Origin: Elsinoe ampelina
Taxonomy: Eukaryota
Assembly (NCBI GenBank): GCA_010093995.1
Contig: ML992505.1
Location: 609,392-673,391, forward strand
Direction: 5' to 3'
DNA: 64,000 nucleotides
Every line of letters starts with the position of its first letter. Position 1 is the first letter of the stretch. This document shows, one piece after another, positions 1-10,198 of the stretch. Both the position numbers and the translations under genes were made by a program. The notes below the pieces were generated by a model. It saw only the letters and a program-made list of their open reading frames with translations. It was not told the origin of the DNA and made no database searches.

Positions 1-1009
1 TTAGTAAATACTAGTTTAGCCTTTAAGATAGAGAGTAAGAAGTCTCTCTATAGCCTTAAGCCTTAAGCTTCTAGTAGATTATAGTTCCTAGCCTTATCTA
101 TAACCTCTTTCTATTACTAAAGCTAATAGTCTATATTCTATAAGAAAGAGCTAGATAGCTACTTCCTCTAGAGTACTTTAACCTCGAGCTAAATAGCTAT
201 ATTAGATAGAGTAAATCTATTCTTTAATGCCCTAAGGATAGCCTATAGATAAGAATCCCCTTCTAGTTAGATAATAGTAAGAACTTATAGTATAATTAAT
301 AACTAAATAAGGCTTGTAAGATCTGCTAAGGCCTTAAGCTATTTATTATACTATACTTGTTCCTTCTTGTATATCTAGAAGAGTGCTAAAAAGTTAATAT
401 TTACTACCTCTAGCCTTTAAGGCTTAGGGAGCCCTTCTAGTTTAATAGTTTTCTAGGGATTAATAAGGTTCTATATCTTAGTATTTAATACTTTTGTCTT
501 AATAATATATAGCTAGCTAGCCTATTTAGCTAATATAGTAAGAATAATAGGTATTCTAGCTATTAAGGTATTAGTATCTATAGTTATTTATCTCCTTATT
601 AACACCTAAATCCTATAGTTATAGTTAAGGCAGTTCTTAACAGATTCTAATGCTTAAAAAGCAAGATAGTAGAGAATTAACTAATAAATAGAGTAGGAAA
701 GTAACTAAGTAATATACTTATATAGGGGTAGTTATACTAGACTTATAACTATTAACTTATATAGGGGAGAAAAAAGGATTAATTACTACCTAAACTACTA
801 AAATAAGGTAGATTATAACTACATAAATACTTAACCTAGTATACTAAAAGATAGCTAAATTAAAAGAACTTCTTAATAGTAGTAGATTAAGATAATAACT
901 TTCTAATTTAATTATAAATTAGTAGAGTAGTAGATAAGTGTTTAGTTCCACCAGGGGATAAACTGAATCAGGGTCCTTCTTAGCGCTCCAGCTTATACCT
1001 CGGTTGACA
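1..1009 (-). mobile_element. RIP-inactivated Ty1/Copia LTR retrotransposon fragment (LTR ~614-1009 plus degenerate gag N-terminus, running off the left edge)
   Basis: Extremely AT/TpA-rich (RIP signature). The minus strand starts TGTCA at 1009, like an LTR terminus. Mentally reversing RIP on the minus strand gives gag-like peptides (roughly W.SWLYIIKTKA...IWDL.NP and LRALKNRF.PS) resembling fungal Copia gag. The inner LTR boundary is approximate. Confidence 0.7.
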
Positions 1010-1125
1010 TCATTGCCACATCACGTGATACTACTTACGCTCTCATCAATTTTGTTGATGATTATATACACCAAAATTTGCCACTCTAGTCCAAATTACC
1101 ATCGGATCGCATGGTTTTTCAAGCA

Positions 1126-1285
1126 GGCAGCGTGGCCGAGTGGTCTAAGGTATTGCTACTCCGTCCCTGCTCATCACTCTATCGCTAACTCTTAAATGGG
1201 CGAAGGACTTGAATTTGCTATAAAAGTGGCATTATGAAGGTATCCTTTCTCTCCGGAGGCGCAGGTTCAAACCCTGCCGCTGTCG
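1126..1285 (+). tRNA. tRNA-Ser(UGA) with two intervening sequences (1150-1199 in the D-arm; 1214-1241 canonical 37/38 intron)
   Basis: Acceptor stem GGCAGCG/CGCTGTC with G discriminator; A-box TGGCCGAGTGG; anticodon stem AAGGA/TCCTT with CT-TGA-A loop; long variable arm CTC-TCCG-GAG; T-arm GCAGG-TTCAAAC-CCTGC. The cloverleaf forms only after both inserts are removed. Confidence 0.88.
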
Positions 1286-1290
1286 CCCTC

Positions 1291-1295
1291 TTTTT
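1291..1295 (+). terminator. RNA Pol III terminator (T5) of tRNA-Ser
   Basis: TTTTT run 5 nt after the discriminator base. Confidence 0.7.
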
Positions 1296-2203
1296 GCACT
1301 CGTTTCGCATGTCTCAAAGTTACAAAAGGTTGTGGAGAGCTCCCTACAGGAATGGCGAGAGGGCGGTGAACGGCACAGGCAGAATGAGCCGAAAGAGCAT
1401 GGAAACTTTACCCTAGAATGCGGGGGTTTTGTGAGGGATTAAAACCATTCACTTTTAAGCAAGAAAGAGACAAAGGGGAACTCAACACGCGCCGTCGACG
1501 AGGTATGGACTCATTTCGTGTCATGGGCTGAATGATATGTTAATATGCTAGAATTTGATCTCCCTTGATCTATGTAGTACGCCTCCGGCATACTCCTATG
1601 ACACCGAAGGGTTTCCTCGAGCGGGACGACTCCTCCCCGCCCCACTCGCCATTCCCCCCCCCTTTCTTCACCCCCTACTGCATCGCCTGGTAAAGCCAGA
1701 ACACCCTTCCTGTCGGCGGTTTTACCAGATCGTTCACATCACATATATCCAAGATCTGCCAATGTCACTGCGCACCTTTCGTGGCCCTACAGCGTTTCAG
1801 GTCACATTGACACTCAGTGGGTGTGGTTGACACCGGAATTTTGAGATTGCACTCAGCGGTACGCTCCGACTAATCACCAGAACTTGACACAGTCATCTCT
1901 CTTGCCGTATTGCTAGAAAGACTTTCAAAGCTGGTAGTATGGTAGATGTAGCTACCAGCTATGTAGTGATCAAGCCAGATGCACAGATCCTGGGGAAACT
2001 GTTCCTGGTAGTATGTTGCACTTCTACTGTCGGCTTTTTAAGGTGTACCTTTGTCGTAAGCGCTGTGCTCAGTCACACCTCACATGGCAGCCTTCAAAGG
2101 TGCTGGTCCTGGTAGGGTCTCTAGTATGCATGTCACCAAGACTAGCAACCTCAAAGTCTCAGCACGGTGGTCTCGGATCTGTCACTCATGCTCACTTGCT
2201 AGA

Positions 2204-2441
2204 TGCTGGTAGTATTCCAACCAGAGGTCCTGCCAGGGAGTCATTCATTATCACTTGTCGGCTGCTAGTGCTGAGTATACTAGTAGTATTCAAATCTTAT
2301 GTCCTACCAGGAAGTCATTCATTATCAGTTGTCAACTACTAGTGCTAAGTATGCTGGTAGTCTTCGATTGGAAGTCCTACTAGGGAGTCATGAACTATCA
2401 CTTGTCGACTGCTCGCGATAAGTATGCTGGTAGTGTTCTGG
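2204..2441. repeat. Imperfect tandem repeat, 73-74 bp unit, 3 copies plus a partial upstream copy
   Basis: Units start GTCCT(G/A)C at 2227, 2301 and 2374 and share GAGTCATTCATTATCACTTGTCG..CTAGTGCT.AGTATGCTGGTAGT-like sequence. Confidence 0.85.
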
Positions 2442-2499: not shown

Positions 2500-4191
2500 T
2501 TACATATCCTTAGAACGTTCGAACTCAATAGTGCACGTGTAAACCTTTGAGGCCTTCATAGCCTTCTGGAACTGGCTAGCGTCTTGCTTGTCTTCGATAC
2601 ACTTCATGCCTCGCCAACAATCGCGCTTGATCGGCTTCCGCTTCTGACGCAGATCAATGAGCTCCTCGGGTGAACGGCGCATAGGGTTGTTCGTGTTGAT
2701 GCTACTGAGGTCGAGGACGGTATTGGTAGCGAGATCGAAAAGCTCCGTGCTGGGCGGAGCGATCGAGGGCGGTGGAAACGTGGTGCGAGGCACATGGATA
2801 TATTCCTTGGCCATGTTGTCGTCGTCCCTCTGGTCATCGCTTTCACTACGGATGTACACTGTTGCAGCAACCGTATTCGCAGGGACACAGGTGAACTTGT
2901 TGTCGATGCGACCTTTAAGAAAGTGATGATCGTACTTGAGTAGATCAACCGGCCTGACGATAACTGGATCGCCGGCGTTGGGAGTGGTCTTGGCCGAAGT
3001 CCGGTTGTCGACTTTGAAGACAGCGACGAAGCCATGCGTCCAGAGATCAGGGTGCTTGAATATGTAGGTAGGAACAGCTGTCAAGGGTCCTGCCTGTGAC
3101 GTCTCCTCATCTTCGACAACAGCTTGATCCATGTTGGCGAAAAGGGGAGATGCGGGTGCAGAATCGACGGGGTATTGTTCAAAATTACCCACGCCATCAC
3201 CGACGAGCTGACGCTCAATGCCATACTCGCGGAAGTATTCGACCAGCAACTTGTTGAGCCCTTGACCCTGCACATGCTGACGCGCGAGATTTGCATTCGC
3301 GTCTTCCACAAGGTCCACATGTAAAGCGCCGAAGACCAGGGCGCGGACTTTGCAAGGGTTGGTCATGAAGCATCTGAGCTTGTGTAGCGTACCGGTGCAG
3401 TAAGTGCCATCGAGAATCTTGCCGAGGATGTTGCATCCAAGGAATGGGCCGCCGTTGTACTCAAACTCAATCTCGTAGCCTGGGATCTCCTCAGAAGCCT
3501 GATCCATAAAACCCGCAGGCGCATCGGGGTAGCTCTGGGCAGTCTGCTCATCCTGCGAGCGATCAAGTTTGCGGATACCGATGGCGCCGTTGATGTTGGT
3601 ATGATCGAACTGGGAGATAGTGATAAGCTGGCGAGGGCTGTCGCTGCCGGTGTCGATGTTTGACCCCACTGGAAAGTCACAGTGATAGCCATAGACGATT
3701 AAAGCTGCCATGTGGTTCTCGCGGACGAAATACTGGATCTTGGCGGTGCTTTCGGTCGGATCAATCTTGAAAGGCGGCTTCCGCGGCACATCCGGATTGT
3801 ATGCCGCTGGGGGGTTAATTCTGGCACCCAGCGACATCGCTTTGAGATCCTTGGGGGACACATAGACCTTGTCCTCAACTTGGGGGGCGCTGAGTCCGTG
3901 AGAACGATCGTGGGACTCGAGCCGGGTGGCTTCAGTGCGTTGAGGACGACCTCCAGCTTCGGCCGGCCCTTGAAACTTGGTTGACGACTTGCCTGGCTTC
4001 TCCGGAAACATTGGATCTGCAACTCGAATGCTGTCGTCGTGGGTAGGAACAATGTCGGAAGTGAATTCAAACCCAATCACGGCAGGGTAGGTGTGGATTC
4101 TGGCTTTGTTTCGACCGAATCCTTTCATCGTAGCCATGTATGGCTCTACAACTTCGCGGCGGATGCCATTGGAGTCGTATGGGCTGGCCAT
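2500..4191 (-). CDS. Hypothetical protein (563-aa ORF, possibly continuing after a GTAAGG donor at its 3' end)
   Basis: Long ATG-initiated ORF with coding-like composition; no recognisable domain. Confidence 0.7.
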   Translation of the reverse strand: MASPYDSNGIRREVVEPYMATMKGFGRNKARIHTYPAVIGFEFTSDIVPTHDDSIRVADPMFPEKPGKSSTKFQGPAEAGGRPQRTEATRLESHDRSHGLSAPQVEDKVYVSPKDLKAMSLGARINPPAAYNPDVPRKPPFKIDPTESTAKIQYFVRENHMAALIVYGYHCDFPVGSNIDTGSDSPRQLITISQFDHTNINGAIGIRKLDRSQDEQTAQSYPDAPAGFMDQASEEIPGYEIEFEYNGGPFLGCNILGKILDGTYCTGTLHKLRCFMTNPCKVRALVFGALHVDLVEDANANLARQHVQGQGLNKLLVEYFREYGIERQLVGDGVGNFEQYPVDSAPASPLFANMDQAVVEDEETSQAGPLTAVPTYIFKHPDLWTHGFVAVFKVDNRTSAKTTPNAGDPVIVRPVDLLKYDHHFLKGRIDNKFTCVPANTVAATVYIRSESDDQRDDDNMAKEYIHVPRTTFPPPSIAPPSTELFDLATNTVLDLSSINTNNPMRRSPEELIDLRQKRKPIKRDCWRGMKCIEDKQDASQFQKAMKASKVYTCTIEFERSKDM

Positions 4192-5710
4192 GATTGCGAG
4201 ACCTATCGAGGAATACTGTCAGTGATGTGAAATGGGGTCCTTGCGTTAGATGGAATTACCAGCTTGTTGATGCGTTATGATGCGAATAAGCTTGATGGCG
4301 AAGAGTCCTGGTTCAGAAGAGAGAATTTGTGAAGTATATGAAGCGTGTGACTGTAATAGGCTTGGCGTGGGAGGAACACGAGCTTATGAGCCAATGAGAA
4401 GGAAGATCAATGGAGTGGCGGGTCGTTGACAGGGCGGCGACGATCTTCGATTGCTTGCACCTGATAGAAGTCAGTCACCGTGAAGCGCTAGAAGCTTCCA
4501 TCACTCACTTTGAAGTCGTGATATTGGGAGGGTGGCAAAATTCTGCGCAACACAGTATAGGCGATCGCGAAATTGCTGTGTGAGAGCCCTTGTGGTTCGA
4601 TATATCGGTATGGTAGACACGGATGAAACCGAGCTTGATAAAAGATATGAACAAAAAAAGAGGTGCTGAGACAAGACCACGGGCCTTGTTGAAGAAAAAA
4701 GAGAAGAGGGGGGTGAAGGCAGGACTTGTTTTGTAGCAGCGAGAGCCGCCAGCACAATCACATGCAAACCTGTTTTGTCTCCACTTCACAATTGCCTGCC
4801 CGCCCTCTAGCTAGCCAATAACGTCGATGACCGTCACCCATGCCGCAGCCAATGGCCAATCGATCAAGTGTAAGATCTACCGAGGCTATGACAACGAACT
4901 GTAGATCAAAGCCAGTAAATGACAACAACAAACCTCACTACTCGTTTGAAATGGTCCATGGTCTTCAAGGCTGATCACGATCAATCCGTGGCCACTAATG
5001 TGCGTCCTTCGCATATGACGCTTGCTTGTCTTAGTTGCGAGACTGTACAAGGGCATGTATGCTCATCATCTGAGGCGAAATGGTCGACTCGAATTGCACT
5101 CGCATCGCTGCTGAAGTGCCTTTGTCGCCCGACCACAGCGGACGCGAGGCCGCCCTAATGAGGTTCACTTCCAAGCATTCGGCCGCGCCAAACTTGCTGC
5201 ATATCACGCCATCCCACGCATCATCTGCTGCCACCGGGGTGAGATCCCGTCGACCAGTGGATATGTTTTTGCTTGCGGACTAAACCGGTCGACGAATAGT
5301 GGCCTGCAAAAGTTTAAGAGCAAATTTGACCAAATATGCTTGTTATCGAATTGCCGTTGTACATGTAGAAGGTGACTCCATTTCACAAATTCGCAGATTG
5401 CATTGTTTGTCTCATCATCCGAATTGTCAAGGTTGGACACTGTTGGAATCTTTGACATGTGATGTTCGTTGCTGCGGGACCACCCGTGTTCTTGGCAGGG
5501 TAGACTGTGGCAGGGGCATGTTTCGGCCTTCGACGCCAACATCGAAGCGCAGGAGGAGGTAGGTACACGCAGTACTGATCTTCAGAGTGTCCGGCCCATC
5601 GAATCATACATTACCCGTTGCCAACTGCTGATGCTAGATATGCTGGTATATCTGATACTACACACCACCCTCCCTGTCCGCCACCGCTCCAGACCATTCA
5701 TGCATGCCAC

Positions 5711-8700
5711 CTACTCCTCCTTCTTCCCAGCCAGAAACATCTCCCTGAAATCACTATTACTCTTCCCCTTCTCTCCCTCCTGCTCCTTCCCCTCCACCCC
5801 AGCACCACCTCTCTTGAATCCCAACCCACCCCTTCTCCCTCCCCTTCCCCCGTTCTGCCCAGGACGACTCACGCTCGCCGGCCTCATCCCCAGCCCATTC
5901 TTCTTCTCAGTTGCGCCAGCGTTCTTCTTCCCTCCAGCCAGGAGTGTCGCGACTTCCCCGACCTTGCATTCTGGTCCGAGACTGCTCGCATCCACGTTCA
6001 TGCTCACTTTGCCAGCGTCGGCGACGTTGACGAACTCGACAAGTGCGCCGCCCTTGTCCCGCCGGACAGTGAGTTTCCTGATCGGGCCGAAGGCGGCGAA
6101 GAAGTCGTGCACGCGCACATCATTCACAGTGTCGGGTAGGTTGAGCAAGGCGACCGTCCTTTCACGCTTGGTCTTGGCCGTGTCATTGCTTTCGCCTTCT
6201 GCTGGAGGTGAGCTGGCGTCGGCAGCGCCTTCAGGAGCAGGAGAGGCTGTTTTGGCGGCCTCGAAGACTTTGGTGGTTCCGTGTTTCTTGTTGGCGGCGT
6301 CACGGGAGGACTTGTCTGTCGCGAGAGAGACGCGGAGAATGCGAGACTGCAGAGGCCTGTTGTTAAAGTTGAGAGCGGCTTGCGCTTCGTCCTGGGAGAG
6401 TCAGTACCAGGACCGTCAGCTATGGATGAACATGTACTTACGGATTTGCTAAAGATGATGAAGGCTGTGCCGGTGAACTTGCCATTGGCGGCGTGCAGCA
6501 TTCTCACGGTCTCAATCGTGCCCGCCTCGGCGAAGAACTCTCGAAGATCGTCTTCCGTAGCGGCGTGCTCAATGTTGCCGATGTGGATCTCGCGCCCTTC
6601 CGAGATCGCACCCTGTCTATGTTTCTTTGCGTCTGGATCGCTGATGAGCACGACGAGGCGACTAGACCCATCGATAGCCTTGTCATGGAGCTGAGTGGCC
6701 GCTTGCGCTTCTTGCGAGGTCGAAAATTGAACATAACAGAAGCGGCGACGTTGGTTGAATTTGAGGGACGGGAAACGGATTGACACGATGGTGCCGTAGG
6801 ACGAGAAGAGGTCTCGGACCTCGTTTTCCGCGAAAGACGCAGGGTAGTTGGTAACGTAGAGGGTCGACTGTGTGCCAGATTTGACTTGAATCTCCGCACC
6901 GTCGAGAGTCTTGCCGTCGCGAGTGCGAGCAGTCACAACGTCCTCGGGTGCCTCAAACTCGATGGTAGCTGTCGCTGAAGCTGTCTGATCGTCCTGTGCG
7001 ATGTTGACCGAGAAGATCGTGCCGCAGTCGCCGAAGAACTGTCTCAGTCGTTTCTCGGTAATGTCTGTGGGCAAGCGTAGAACAGTGATTGAATTGTTCT
7101 CTCGGTCACGCTTGATCTGGGCGGACGCAGAGGCTGATGGCTCTGTTCGAACATCATCCGGGGCTATGTCCTCAGTCTTATTGCGCTTCGCAGAGTCGCC
7201 ATTAGTGTCTGGCTCGTCGTCTCGTTTGCGCTTGGCTGTGAAGACGGACTCTTCAGATAGCGGCTGTGCGGTAGGCGCGGCAGCTTGAGCCTCTGCAGCA
7301 GCAGCTTCAGCCTCGCGATCTCTCCTCGCTTTCAGCGCCTTCTGCGACCTGCGCAGCGCGACCTGAGCTTTTTGAATCTCCTCCGGCGATTCATGAGTCT
7401 GGAAATGATGGGCATAGAGTTGATGAATCTTCTCTGGCCAATCCAGATTCTTCTGCTTCATGGCCTCCCGCAACACTTCAGACGCTAGCCGAGGCTGAGT
7501 GCCCGGGCCTTCCACTCTCAGGTTGAAGACAGTCCTTTCAGCACCCCAAACAAAGATCTCCCACTCGTAGTATTGAGCCCAGAAGTCATAGCTATGACCT
7601 TGCAGAGGAACAAGTCTAGCCCACTGACCTCTTGCCTCCTGCATACGTCGAGCCTGGGTCAAAAACTTGATGAAGATCTTCTCGATTCGCCATAGTGGAT
7701 CGCCCTTGAAATCATCACCATATGCTTTCTTCCCATCATTCTCGACATCATTCAGGCACTCTGCAATCGCCATCTCGGCCATATCAACATCATCGTCAGT
7801 CGCCAACGAAGTGAAAGCACGGCGACGTAGATAGCTGCACCAGGTAGAGTAAACGAGCAGGATCTCCTCCATGCCGCCAGTCGGTAGCAGTCCACTGTTG
7901 GTCGCCTTGTGCTTGACGCCCTCCACTTCGTCGTACATTTGAGTGTCTAGCTCCACACGAAGTAGACGTCGGGCCCAGAGCTCGCCTGACCAGGGACAGT
8001 GCCTTGTAGCTCTTTCCAAAAGAGGTAAGATGCCGGTGCTGGCTGTGTCTAGTGTCGTCAGGTAGTCGACATAATCCAACCACCATTCCACCAAAGTCGG
8101 AAAGCGCAGCAGTGCACGTTCATACAAGGCGCATCTTAGCTCGTGGTCAAAAGGTCCGCGTTTCTTCTTGAATTTGCTTTCCCAGTGCAGGTAAGCAGAG
8201 AAAGCATTGTACAGAGCAGCACTGTCGTTACTTCGGAAAGCCTTGGTCAGCTCCAGCTCGTGCATCTCTCGCTTGTTGTGTTCATCTTTGGCAGCTGCTG
8301 CAATCTCGTTGGTCGCAGACATAGTTTCCTCCCAGCTGTCTGCCTTGTGCTTGGAGATGAAAGGCCAGAATGATTGCGAAGTGCCTTCCCAATGTGCGTG
8401 AGGGATCTGTAGCCTGTTCATGTACAATAATTGTACTTCCTCAATGGTTTGCGAAGTGGGCTGTTCTGGAAGATCCTGCATGACGAGCTCAGCGTAGCGA
8501 TTCCAGACGACCTGGCTTTCGTCCATTCGCCACTTGGTTGCTTCCACGGCTTGACTCCAAACCGAGAGGACCATCTTGCGAGAGAAGACTTCCTTGCAGA
8601 TCAGCTTGTCCTCTTCGCTCCAGGTGTCCTCGTCGCCCTCCATGTAGCCATTTGCGACGGCGTATGTCGACCAAACCCATTCGCCATAAAGAGACCAGAG

Positions 8701-9663
8701 CACAACGCTTGCTGGTTCTTCCTGTACAGCCCTCATGCACAACTCCATTACAGCACTTCGCTCTTCGCTAGAGTGTGCGAGTGCACTCTCGTCGTTGATC
8801 CAGTCCCTCCAAATGTCCTCGCCCACTGCATATCGCGAGTCCATTGCTCCGCGGGCCATGCGCAATTCTGTCAGCCACGGGTAGTCTGCAGGATTTGAAG
8901 GCTGTCCACTCTCGTTCAGTGGAGTGTCAGTGTGTGCTTGAAAACCTCGATGAAGCAGGTTGATTAGTTGAGCATGCGAATTGTAGTCATAAGAATTATC
9001 GGCCAGATATGTCGTCAGCTCCTGGATCGTTTTCGCATCGGCCTCTGAAAGTGAAGTAGCAGAGAAGCTCCGTGGTGGCGGTGTTTGCGCTGGCGCCTCA
9101 GCCATGACCAGGTCTGATGCCGAGTGAGTCCTCATATTTGGCGGCGCCTGTCTCACATACGACAGAGACGGTGATCTAGCCAAATCTGGTCTCGATGATA
9201 GACTGTGAGGTGTACCTGGCTGAGCTTTGGTCGATATGTCCGACATGGTGTCGATGTTACTCATCGATGAGTTGCGATGGGCGCTAAGCAGCGAGGGTCT
9301 TTGTTGGGGCTGCGGCGTTGGGGTGCTGAAAGGACTTCCTATTTCCGTCCCAGGAGTGACAGCTGCAGAGACCGACATACGATTGTCCATAATGTAGTGC
9401 TGAGGGGCAGATGCCATTCCTGGTAGGCTCTGAGCAGGTGGCTGTTGATACTGTGGAACTCCATGTTGGCCATTCTGGGCACCGGCCCTGGGTGGTTCTG
9501 GCGATGGGGTGATAAGGACTTCTTGACTTAAGAGGGATGTGGTCCTTGCACCTGCAGCAGGTCTTGGTCTCTTCCTGGTGCTGTTCTGGTTGGCAGTTTG
9601 GTTTGGGGCTTGATTCTGCTGTTGTGGTGCCTCATTGTCGGAAAGTAGTGAAGCAATGTCCAT
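5711..9663 (-). CDS. PRP24: Pre-mRNA splicing factor Prp24/SART3 (HAT repeats, RRMs, C-terminal Lsm-interaction motif); intron 6392-6441
   Basis: HAT-like ERALLRFP/ERATRHCPW, several RRMs (TLYVTNYP..RFCYVQF, IHIGNI..GTAFIIF), and C-terminal KSNSDFREMFL; a GTAAGT..CTGAC..CAG intron joins the two ORFs. Confidence 0.92.
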
Positions 9664-10198
9664 CTTGACAGGGTCCAAGCCGTTTTTATGTGTTGCACTG
9701 TGGCGAACTAGATGCTCACGTGGTGATGTCAATCTTCATCACAAGTGACTGGGAAGCATGAACGAGCTAGTCGCTGGAGCTTGAAAGCGAAGCGCAATGG
9801 CGTCCGTCGTACTGAGAAGTGCGGCTCGTATTGGGGAGCTGCCACCTCTGCCTTGGTGGCAAGCTGTTCAAGAAACCTTTGCGGCTCTGCGGGCAGATAT
9901 TACAGGCAGAAATTATGGAAATGGTCCAGAAATCTCGCCGGACAATGTTTTCAGATCGATCGAAGCGAGCGTTCGGTCTGTTCCCTGACCACTATGCCGC
10001 CAATTGTGGAGTCGAAGGCCAAATGTCAATGATTTGTTCTCCCTAAAAATTAGCTGAGGATGTGCTGTCAAACGGCGAGCCATTCGGAATGGTCAAAGCT
10101 TCCGCTTCCCATACTCGCCTGCCAAGGCCTGCACTTTTTCAACTTCACCTCGCTGTCGACATCACAAGCACCTTGTCATTCCGAGGTGCGCAAATAGC

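What the first reader, a model, noticed from the sequence alone, without database searches (positions are those of the whole stretch)
1150..1199. Spliceosomal-type intron inside the D-arm of a tRNA-Ser(UGA) gene
Seen: a 50-nt insert splits the 3' strand of the D-stem (CTAAG|GTATTG...GCTAAC TCTTAAATGG|GCG). It has a GT donor at an AG|G proto-splice site, a pyrimidine-rich body, and a GCTAAC branch consensus whose A (1188) is 11 nt from the end. Its length falls in the 47-56 nt range of mRNA introns in this window, and exact removal restores the cloverleaf. It ends in TGG, one transition away from TAG; the next AG (1205) would delete the D-stem strand. Known: spliceosomal introns occur in fungal U6 and other snRNAs and in ascomycete rRNA; tRNA introns are normally cut by the SEN endonuclease at 37/38. 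I know of no spliceosomal intron in a tRNA. Inference: a Pol III transcript that acquired an mRNA-type intron (e.g. by reverse splicing) and needs the spliceosome, or a non-canonical GG acceptor, to mature; otherwise an insertion-killed copy.
Basis: partly seen in the sequence, partly recalled or inferred. Interest (0 to 1): 0.92.

Follow-up and report, generated by a model that had tools for sequence, protein, structure and literature searches.

The report
mRNA-type intron inside a tRNA gene
A fungal-type serine tRNA gene carries, besides its normal tRNA intron, a second 50-base insert that looks like the introns of protein-coding genes and is missing, cut out exactly, from RNA assemblies of this locus, which I did not find described for any tRNA gene.

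Summary
A tRNA-Ser(UGA) gene lies at 1126-1285 (+). It has a canonical 28-nt intron at 37/38 (1214-1241) and an extra 50-nt insert at 1150-1199, in the 3' strand of the D-stem. ARAGORN recognises the tRNA only after that insert is removed.

New evidence comes from contigs of two public runs from two studies, both RNA by inference. They join 1148 to 1199, skipping exactly these 50 nt. They still keep the canonical tRNA intron and the flanks. One contig also lacks an ordinary 49-nt GT..AG intron at 1503-1551. The DNA run keeps the insert.

The insert starts with GT and has GCTAAC with its branch A 11 nt from the end. It is as long as local mRNA introns and has no bulge-helix-bulge. It ends in GG, not AG.

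Best reading: a genuine mRNA-type GU-GG intron in a tRNA gene. Three things are not shown: spliceosome dependence, the polymerase, and whether a mature tRNA results. The main rival is an insertion polymorphism between strains.

No orthologues could be obtained, and seven literature searches found no description. The scan noted one comparable, unchecked case in an alga (e1-4091646).

The parts
1126..1285 (+). tRNA-Ser(UGA) gene, from G1 to discriminator G73, interrupted twice
   Evidence: ARAGORN calls tRNA-Ser(tga), 84 bases by its own count, once 1150-1199 is removed. My mature sequence is 82 nt.
1126..1149 (+). Exon 1: acceptor 5' strand, D-stem 5' strand and D-loop, up to about position 23
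   Evidence: Cloverleaf; sequence.
1150..1199 (+). 50-nt mRNA-type intron (GT..GG) in the 3' strand of the D-stem; the register can slide by +/-1
   Evidence: Contigs of X3 and X4 join 1148 to 1199 ('skips 50', both = 2). DNA run X1 has no joined form. Signals tested; no BHB.
1150..1155 (+). Donor GTATTG after exon AAG; lacks the usual G at +5
   Evidence: Sequence. Local candidate introns mostly start GTRAGT, GTAAGA or GTATGA.
1184..1189 (+). Branch-site consensus GCTAAC; branch A at 1188, 11 nt from the intron end
   Evidence: Sequence. CTAAC at this spacing occurs in 0.29% of window 50-mers.
1197..1199 (+). Non-canonical acceptor TGG where YAG is expected
   Evidence: Sequence. The X1 DNA contig has 0 differences.
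1200..1213 (+). Exon 2: rest of the D-stem, position 26, anticodon stem 5' strand, and loop through A37 (anticodon TGA at 1210-1212)
1214..1241 (+). Canonical 28-nt tRNA intron at 37/38; C32 can pair with intron position -3
   Evidence: ARAGORN intron call; coordinates checked. Retained in the RNA contigs that lack 1150-1199.
1242..1285 (+). Exon 3: position 38, anticodon stem 3' strand, long variable arm, T-arm, acceptor 3' strand, G73
1133..1143 (+). A-box-like motif, intact and upstream of the insert
   Evidence: Motif scan: 4 matches in the window, 3.41 expected by chance, this one inside the tRNA. The consensus pattern is recalled.
1264..1274 (+). B-box-like motif, the only one in the window
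   Evidence: Motif scan: 1 match, 0.99 expected by chance. The consensus pattern is recalled.
1291..1295 (+). T5 run, a Pol III terminator-like site; no run of four or more T inside the gene or either intron
1002..1604 (+). Stretch covered by the RNA contigs that run through the tRNA gene (X3: 1002-1148 + 1199-1435; X4: 1117-1148 + 1199-1500 + 1550-1604)
   Evidence: table 8. Contig continuity does not prove a single molecule. The spliced model has no ATG-started ORF above 109 aa.
1503..1551 (+). Ordinary 49-nt GT..AG intron removed in the same X4 contig; it sets the strand and shows that the run is RNA
   Evidence: table 5 (skips 49, GT..AG with cut +2); sequence.

Best explanation
The 50-nt insert is a genuine intron of the mRNA (spliceosomal) type, with GU at its start, a GCUAAC branch site 11 nt from its end and an unusual GG acceptor. 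It sits in the D-stem of an otherwise perfect tRNA-Ser(UGA) gene that also has a normal tRNA intron.

Shown: RNA-derived contigs of this locus lack exactly these 50 nt while the DNA keeps them. The same contigs still hold the canonical tRNA intron and the gene's flanks. One of them also lacks a neighbouring GT-AG intron.

Inferred:
- The spliceosome removes the insert, probably from a long + strand (Pol II-type) transcript that starts near 1002 and reads through the tRNA gene.
- That removal comes before, and is independent of, the tRNA-splicing endonuclease.
- GG is used because no AG lies between the branch A and 1204, and the AG at 1204-1205 lies in the anticodon stem.
- The tRNA body could then be released by RNase P and RNase Z and finished by SEN and Trl1. 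Alternatively, the Pol III transcript could be spliced as S. pombe U6 is.

The confidence given (0.65) is for 'real intron, excised at RNA level, by the spliceosome'. I put about 0.4 on a mature tRNA being made from this locus. Otherwise the intron serves only the long non-coding RNA, and the tRNA gene is a bystander.
For:: exact removal restores a full Ser(UGA) cloverleaf with a canonical intron.

- The X3 contig (408 nt, 0 differences) covers 1002-1148 and 1199-1435.
- The X4 contig (389 nt, 3 differences) covers 1117-1148, 1199-1500 and 1550-1604.
- Both skip the same 50 nt. The two runs come from two studies.
- X4 also skips 1503-1551 (GT..AG), which marks it as spliced + strand RNA.
- No contig of X3 or X4 covers the insert.
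- DNA run X1 is colinear with the window and shows no joined form (0 contigs).
- The first junction-specific 31-mer still includes 5 nt of this locus's own leader. A paralogue is therefore unlikely to be the source (my reasoning from the coordinates).

the GT start plus well-placed CTAAC occurs in 0.019% of window 50-mers. The insert is 66% pyrimidine. No T-run of 4 or more lies in the gene before the terminator. The first AG after the branch A is at 1204.

local candidate mRNA introns cluster near 45-57 nt, with CTRAY 8-12 nt from the end in the clean cases.

no BHB in any of 3 registers (central helix 1 of 4 pairs each).

(passages): GT-GG introns exist at low frequency in fungi. They are listed for F. 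graminearum, and G. lingzhi has 38 (0.04%).

(section 14 of PMC5855946): the Pol III-transcribed U6 of S. pombe carries an intron that the spliceosome removes.
Against: - The acceptor is GG, not AG, and the donor lacks G at +5, so both splice sites are weak.
- The runs are labelled 'RNA? (a guess)'. They are Logan contigs, which cannot show strand, ends or unspliced fractions.
- A contig across neighbouring features does not prove one molecule (tool warning).
- The strains behind X3 and X4 may differ from the sequenced one; X4 has 3 differences. A DNA-level absence of the 50 bp in those strains is therefore not excluded.
- No lariat, no spliceosome-dependence data and no tRNA-seq are available.
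- No orthologue was available to show conserved signals: 0 of 7 metagenome loci carried an intron-like insert.
- A Pol II transcript running through the gene may mean the gene is not occupied by Pol III factors.
Confidence: 0.65

Rival explanations
1. Bystander reading. The intron is real and spliceosomal but belongs functionally to the long non-coding + strand RNA. The tRNA gene was hit by an intron gain and is dead as a Pol III gene, so no mature tRNA comes from this locus. This shares its first step with the best explanation and differs only on the outcome for the tRNA.
For: The RNA contigs extend from 1002 to 1435 or 1604, beyond the T5 terminator, and keep the canonical tRNA intron. What is seen is therefore not a maturing tRNA. 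A review states that D- or T-arm insertions in eukaryotic tRNA genes are generally taken as pseudogenes among redundant copies (passage of PMC4090602). Exact restoration of the tRNA is automatic for any spliced intron and so does not argue for function.
Against: The cloverleaf is perfect, and the A- and B-box-like motifs, the canonical intron and the terminator are intact. No Pol III terminator lies within the insert. The 3 differences in the related X4 and X5 contigs all fall outside the mature tRNA: two in the canonical intron and one in the trailer. This last point is weak, since about half of random placements would do the same.
Confidence: 0.35
2. Insertion polymorphism. The strains used for the RNA runs lack the 50 bp in their DNA. 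The 'junction' would then simply be the uninterrupted gene, and the window's copy would be an insertion-killed tRNA gene.
For: Run kinds and strains are not on record. The X4 contig differs from the window at 3 places, so it comes from another lineage. No DNA run of those strains was laid.
Against: The X3 contig has 0 differences over 384 nt. The insert's GT start, well-placed CTAAC, pyrimidine richness and intron-like length would be an unexplained coincidence at 0.019% of 50-mers. Two independent lineages would both have to lack the insert while the sequenced one has it.
Confidence: 0.1
3. Non-spliceosomal excision. An endonuclease (SEN or another) and the tRNA ligase remove the insert, as happens with the non-canonical tRNA introns of red algae, nucleomorphs and archaea.
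For: D-arm or D-loop introns alongside a canonical intron are known and verified in Cyanidioschyzon, Chondrus and nucleomorphs (passages). The acceptor is not AG.
Against: No BHB in any of 3 registers. Folds of the pre-tRNA and of the D-arm region are no more stable than shuffles (z = -1.07 and -0.26). The canonical intron, the natural SEN substrate, is still present in the molecules that lack the insert. The eukaryotic enzyme is described as measuring from the tRNA body (passage).
Confidence: 0.07
4. Artefact. Reverse-transcriptase template switching or an assembly error created the 50-nt skip.
For: A 2-nt repeat (GG) flanks both ends ('both = 2'), and the RNA is structured.
Against: The same junction is seen in two runs of two studies, and it is the only form assembled in both. 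Two bases of homology is little. The skip coincides with intron signals and with exact restoration of the tRNA.
Confidence: 0.03

Closest known systems
mRNA-type (spliceosomal) introns in the Pol III-transcribed U6 snRNA gene of S. pombe and other fungi (Tani and Ohshima 1989, 1991; Canzler 2016, as cited in PMC5855946, section 14)
   Same: A short intron of about 50 nt with mRNA-type signals sits inside a small, structured, non-coding RNA gene that has internal Pol III promoter elements. Reverse splicing is proposed as its origin.
   Different: The host is a tRNA, not a spliceosomal RNA that sits in the active site. The acceptor is GG, whereas the U6 introns are described as canonical. The gene also holds a second intron of another class. 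Pol III origin of the spliced RNA is not shown here.
Non-canonical tRNA introns in the D-arm or D-loop of red algae (Cyanidioschyzon merolae, Chondrus crispus) and of cryptophyte and chlorarachniophyte nucleomorphs (PMC4090602; PlantRNA 2.0 preprint; PMC3728597, abstract)
   Same: A nuclear-type eukaryotic tRNA gene carries an extra intron in the D region in addition to the canonical 37/38 intron, and excision restores the cloverleaf.
   Different: Those introns are linked to BHB-type recognition by the tRNA endonuclease and are mostly short (3-24 nt in the Guillardia nucleomorph). This one has no BHB, has GT/CTAAC signals, and is removed while the canonical intron stays.
Spliceosomal introns in other non-coding RNA genes: U1, U2 and U5 of Rhodotorula, and rRNA genes of ascomycetes (Takahashi 1993, 1996; Bhattacharya 2000, as cited in PMC5855946)
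   Same: mRNA-type introns in genes for structural RNAs of fungi.
   Different: None of the RNAs listed there is a tRNA.
Rare GT-GG introns of fungal mRNAs (Fusarium graminearum, PMC3577648; Ganoderma lingzhi, PMC11590231)
   Same: A GT donor with a GG acceptor, supported by transcript data.
   Different: Those lie in protein-coding genes. I did not see their branch-site spacing or the supplementary lists.
tRNA pseudogenes with D- or T-arm insertions (PMC4090602)
   Same: An insertion in the D-arm of a eukaryotic tRNA gene, which standard finders fail to call.
   Different: Here the insertion is missing, exactly, from RNA contigs, and the rest of the gene shows no decay.

Membership tests
U2-type spliceosomal intron | GU at the 5' end with a donor consensus (GURNGU in fungi, recalled) | tested here: met
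   GTATTG after exon AAG. GT is present, but +5 and +6 depart from the consensus seen in local candidates.
U2-type spliceosomal intron | Branch-site consensus CURAY a short distance upstream of the 3' end | tested here: met
   GCTAAC at 1184-1189, with the A 11 nt from the end. This occurs in 0.29% of window 50-mers.
U2-type spliceosomal intron | AG (YAG) at the 3' end | tested here: not met
   The insert ends TGG. The X1 DNA contig confirms it, and the RNA junction uses it. GT-GG is a documented rare class in fungi.
U2-type spliceosomal intron | Length within the organism's intron size range | tested here: met
   50 nt. The RNA-verified neighbour is 49 nt. Seven clean ORF-joining candidates, picked by eye from a set of 29, measure 47-63 nt.
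U2-type spliceosomal intron | Precise excision from RNA | tested here: met
   Contigs of 2 of the 4 laid runs join 1148 to 1199. DNA run X1 does not. X5 does not cover the site. The RNA nature of X3 and X4 is inferred.
U2-type spliceosomal intron | Lariat intermediate and dependence on the spliceosome | not testable with these tools
   Only contigs were available. No raw reads and no mutants.
BHB-type (endonuclease) non-canonical tRNA intron | Bulge-helix-bulge, or a relaxed form, at the two splice sites | tested here: not met
   Central helix has 1 of 4 pairs in each of 3 registers, with outer and inner helices at 0-2 of 4. The register definition is reasoned from memory of the motif.
Canonical eukaryotic tRNA intron (SEN, ruler mechanism) | Position 37/38, one nucleotide 3' of the anticodon | tested here: not met
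   The insert lies at about 23/24 in the D-stem. The second intron, 1214-1241, does meet this feature.
mRNA-type intron in a Pol III non-coding RNA gene (U6 type) | The host gene has Pol III promoter and terminator elements compatible with transcription through the intron | tested here: met
   A- and B-box-like motifs, T5 at 1291-1295, and no T-run of 4 or more inside. Consensus patterns are recalled. The A-to-B spacing of about 120 nt is tolerable by recollection only.
mRNA-type intron in a Pol III non-coding RNA gene (U6 type) | The Pol III transcript itself is the spliced substrate | tested here: inconclusive
   The RNA contigs reach 124 nt upstream and more than 140 nt past the terminator. 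That suggests a Pol II-type RNA, but contigs cannot assign molecules.
Insertion-killed tRNA pseudogene | The insert persists in RNA, or the gene shows further decay | tested here: not met
   The insert is absent from the RNA contigs, and the cloverleaf and promoter motifs are intact. An indel polymorphism remains possible.

The most novel reading that the evidence does not exclude
A tRNA whose maturation needs two unrelated splicing machines. The spliceosome first removes a GU-GG intron from the D-stem, with the non-AG acceptor imposed by the tRNA's own structure. The tRNA endonuclease and ligase then remove the 37/38 intron. Production of this Ser(UGA) tRNA would thus be coupled to mRNA-splicing capacity. 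The substrate may even be a Pol II transcript from which the tRNA is then cut out. Standard tRNA finders are blind to such genes, so the class could be wider in filamentous fungi.
Probability: 0.3. Interest if true: 0.92.

Novelty: new variant of a known kind. Interest (0 to 1): 0.78.

Why it matters
Textbook and tool assumptions are that eukaryotic nuclear tRNA genes have at most one intron, at 37/38, removed by the tRNA endonuclease. The tRNAscan-SE 2.0 paper says eukaryotic tRNA genes 'are limited to one intron' (passage). A review treats D-arm insertions as pseudogenes (passage).

An mRNA-type intron in a tRNA gene that is actually excised would matter in four ways:
- It would add tRNA to the short list of non-coding RNAs invaded by spliceosomal introns (U6, U1, U2, U5, rRNA).
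- It would give a natural test case for intron gain at an AG|G site in a non-coding RNA.
- It would offer a natural GU-GG acceptor for studying 3' splice-site choice.
- It would expose a blind spot of tRNA annotation: default ARAGORN and Rfam both miss this gene.

If the tRNA is made from the spliced RNA, it would link tRNA supply to the spliceosome.

Tried and rejected
- **Whole genome:** none is held. Counting Ser(UGA) genes and scanning other tRNA genes genome-wide were therefore impossible. Within the window there is only one B-box-like site and one tRNA.
- **Earlier scan notes:** nothing for this genome or this sequence.
- **ARAGORN on the intact window with introns allowed:** it gives 'tRNA-Thr(agt)' with a 67-nt intron. 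I rejected this as a mis-parse.
- **BHB reading:** rejected.
- **Folding:** minimum-energy folds are not better than shuffles, so no structural argument could be made.
- **Multi-copy introner-like element:** no second copy of the insert in the window, only chance matches of 13 nt or less. Not testable genome-wide.
- **Orthologues:** I made one metagenome scan for Ser(UGA) exons with a 35-65 nt insert at this site. It gave 7 loci, and 0 of 7 were intron-like. They are tandem or partial tRNA copies, neighbouring tRNAs or chance matches. No second scan was allowed.
- **Sequencing runs:** no RNA holder is listed on record. The first read laying try failed on the server and was repeated once. Stretches without cover in X3 (beyond 1435), X4 (1010-1116) and X5 are not used as evidence. 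The Illumina adapter joined at 1002 in X3 hints at a preferred fragment end but gives no strand.
- **Coding potential of the long RNA:** no ATG-started ORF above 109 aa in the spliced model. I treat it as non-coding.
- **Neighbour ORF 2500-4218(-):** no Pfam hit, and only weak Atlas leads (best 0.86, Duc1-like).
- **Literature:** seven full-text searches found no paper describing a spliceosomal intron in a tRNA gene. One search failed on a too-short term. Subscription journals are largely outside that library. I did not open the supplementary lists of the GT-GG introns (PMC3577648 Additional file 12; PMC11590231 Table S7).

Full report
**What is there.** At 1126-1285 (+) lies a class II tRNA gene.
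- It has a 7-bp acceptor stem (one G-U pair), a 3-bp D-stem, anticodon TGA, a long variable arm, a T-arm and discriminator G.
- ARAGORN in default mode finds nothing in the 64-kb window. Rfam at gathering thresholds finds nothing either.
- When 1150-1199 is removed, ARAGORN calls tRNA-Ser(tga) with a 28-nt intron at the canonical site.
- Correct coordinates for the canonical intron are 1214-1241. C32 can pair with intron position -3, as expected for a eukaryotic tRNA intron (my reading of the sequence).
- A-box-like (1133-1143) and B-box-like (1264-1274) motifs are intact. A T5 run follows at 1291-1295, and no run of four or more T lies inside the gene.
- The insert sits at about position 23/24, in the 3' strand of the D-stem. 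Its register can slide by one base either way because G's flank both ends.

**The insert's signals.**
- It begins GTATTG after exon AAG and carries GCTAAC with the branch A at 1188, 11 nt from the end.
- It is 66% pyrimidine and 50 nt long, and it ends TGG.
- A GT start plus a CTAAC placed 6-20 nt from the end is found in 0.019% of all 127,900 50-mers of the window.
- A rough set of ORF-joining intron candidates gave 29 candidates. It is noisy and includes antisense artefacts. The clean ones are 45-57 nt, with CTRAY 8-12 nt from the end.
- The donor lacks the usual G at +5, and the acceptor is not AG.
- The first AG after the branch A is at 1204-1205, inside the anticodon stem.

**It is not an endonuclease-type intron.**
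- In none of the three possible registers do the splice sites fall into a bulge-helix-bulge. The central helix has 1 of 4 pairs each time.
- Minimum-energy folds of the pre-tRNA and of the D-arm region are no more stable than shuffles (z = -1.07 and -0.26).
- The eukaryotic endonuclease is described as measuring from the tRNA body to 37/38 (PMC4090602, passage).

**RNA evidence.** A search of public runs found 9 rows holding part of 700-1700, from 4 studies. None is on record as RNA. I laid four of them: X1, X3, X4 and X5 (after a server failure).
- **DNA run X1:** a 3718-nt contig is colinear with 959-1700 with 0 differences. The insert and its TGG are therefore real in DNA, although this may be the assembly's own data. 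X1 shows no joined form.
- **X3:** a 408-nt contig with 0 differences covers 1002-1148 and 1199-1435.
- **X4:** a 389-nt contig with 3 differences covers 1117-1148, 1199-1500 and 1550-1604.
- Both contigs skip exactly 50 nt (from 1148 to 1199, with 2 nt ambiguous). That allows GG..TG, GT..GG or TA..GG ends. Only GT..GG is near-canonical.
- X4 also skips a 49-nt GT..AG intron (1503-1551). This shows that the run is RNA and that the transcript is on the + strand.
- X3 and X4 cover the stretch only in parts, and X3 carries an adapter-joined end at 1002. Both points fit RNA.
- Both contigs retain the canonical tRNA intron and run past the T5 terminator.
- No contig of X3 or X4 covers the insert.
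- The first junction-specific 31-mer still includes 5 nt of this locus's leader, so a paralogue is an unlikely source (my reasoning).
- The tool warns that contig continuity does not prove a single molecule and that contigs drop rare forms.

**Reading.**
- *Most likely explanation:* the insert is a real mRNA-type intron with a GG acceptor. It is removed from RNA of this locus while the tRNA-type intron is still in place, which points to two different machines.
- *Precedent for the odd acceptor:* GT-GG introns are a documented rare class in fungi. They are listed among Sanger-checked non-canonical sites in F. graminearum (PMC3577648, passage). In G. lingzhi there are 38, or 0.04% (PMC11590231, passages).
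- *Which RNA is spliced:* the RNA seen looks like a long non-coding + strand transcript through the tRNA gene. Its longest ATG-started ORF is 109 aa.
- *Open question:* whether the Pol III transcript is also spliced, as S. pombe U6 is (PMC5855946, section 14), or whether the tRNA is cut out of the spliced long RNA. I put about 0.4 on this locus yielding mature tRNA.
- *Weak hint of constraint:* the 3 differences in the related contigs of X4 and X5 lie in the canonical intron (1230, 1233) and the trailer (1286), not in the mature tRNA.

**Rivals.**
- The main rival to the excision itself is a strain polymorphism for the 50 bp. It would leave the intron signals as an unexplained coincidence.
- Non-spliceosomal excision is disfavoured by the missing BHB and by the retained canonical intron.

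**Comparative evidence could not be obtained.**
- No genome is held.
- The insert has no second copy in the window.

**Known and new.**
- Spliceosomal introns are described in U6, U1, U2, U5 and rRNA genes of fungi.
- D-region introns in eukaryotic tRNA genes are described in red algae and nucleomorphs, where they are of the endonuclease type.
- Seven full-text searches found no report of a spliceosomal intron in a tRNA gene. The library lacks most subscription journals.
- The tRNAscan-SE 2.0 paper states that eukaryotic tRNA genes are limited to one intron (passage).
I did not test it.

**Context.**
- The organism is a filamentous-ascomycete-type fungus by inference. Introns are about 50 nt with CTAAC-type branch sites.
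- Positions 1-960 are a 28% GC repeat with strong RIP-like dinucleotide indices. DNA run X1 holds the 700-1009 part of it at very high depth.
- Neighbouring genes are ordinary.

Noticed in passing
window 1-960 (depth measured only for 700-1009): AT-rich repeat (GC 28%) with strong RIP-like indices: TpA/ApT 1.92 and (CpA+TpG)/(ApC+GpT) 0.20, against 0.52-0.58 and 1.26-1.33 over 2500-64000. Hundreds of divergent contigs of DNA run X1 pile up on 700-1009 at very high depth. It looks like a mutated high-copy transposon that ends about 120 nt upstream of the tRNA gene.
   Followed up: partly
window 1002-1604 (+), intron 1503-1551: Apparently non-coding spliced + strand RNA running through the tRNA gene. 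It has a 49-nt GT..AG intron, verified in an X4 contig, and an adapter-joined fragment end at 1002 in X3. The spliced model has no ATG-started ORF above 109 aa.
   Followed up: partly
window 2203-2438: Tandem repeat of a 74-nt unit, 3.2 copies, 78% matches, between the tRNA locus and the gene at 2500-4218(-).
   Followed up: no
window 6124-9735 (-): A 1203-aa ORF with HAT repeats and three RRM stretches. By recollection this matches a Prp24/SART3-like U4/U6 recycling factor. Its closeness to an odd intron is a coincidence as far as I can tell.
   Followed up: no
window 1115-1119: A second T5 run lies 7 nt upstream of the tRNA's first base. It would stop any Pol III transcript coming from upstream.
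   Followed up: no
L001 (metagenome), L006 (metagenome): Ordinary tRNA-Ser(UGA) genes preceded by a partial tandem copy of their own 5' half: acceptor, D-arm and anticodon stem are duplicated.
   Followed up: no
window 1230, 1233, 1286: The contigs of X4 (labelled organism A) and X5 (labelled organism B) share the same three differences from the window. X3 (organism A) has none. The species labels therefore do not follow the sequence variants here.
   Followed up: no
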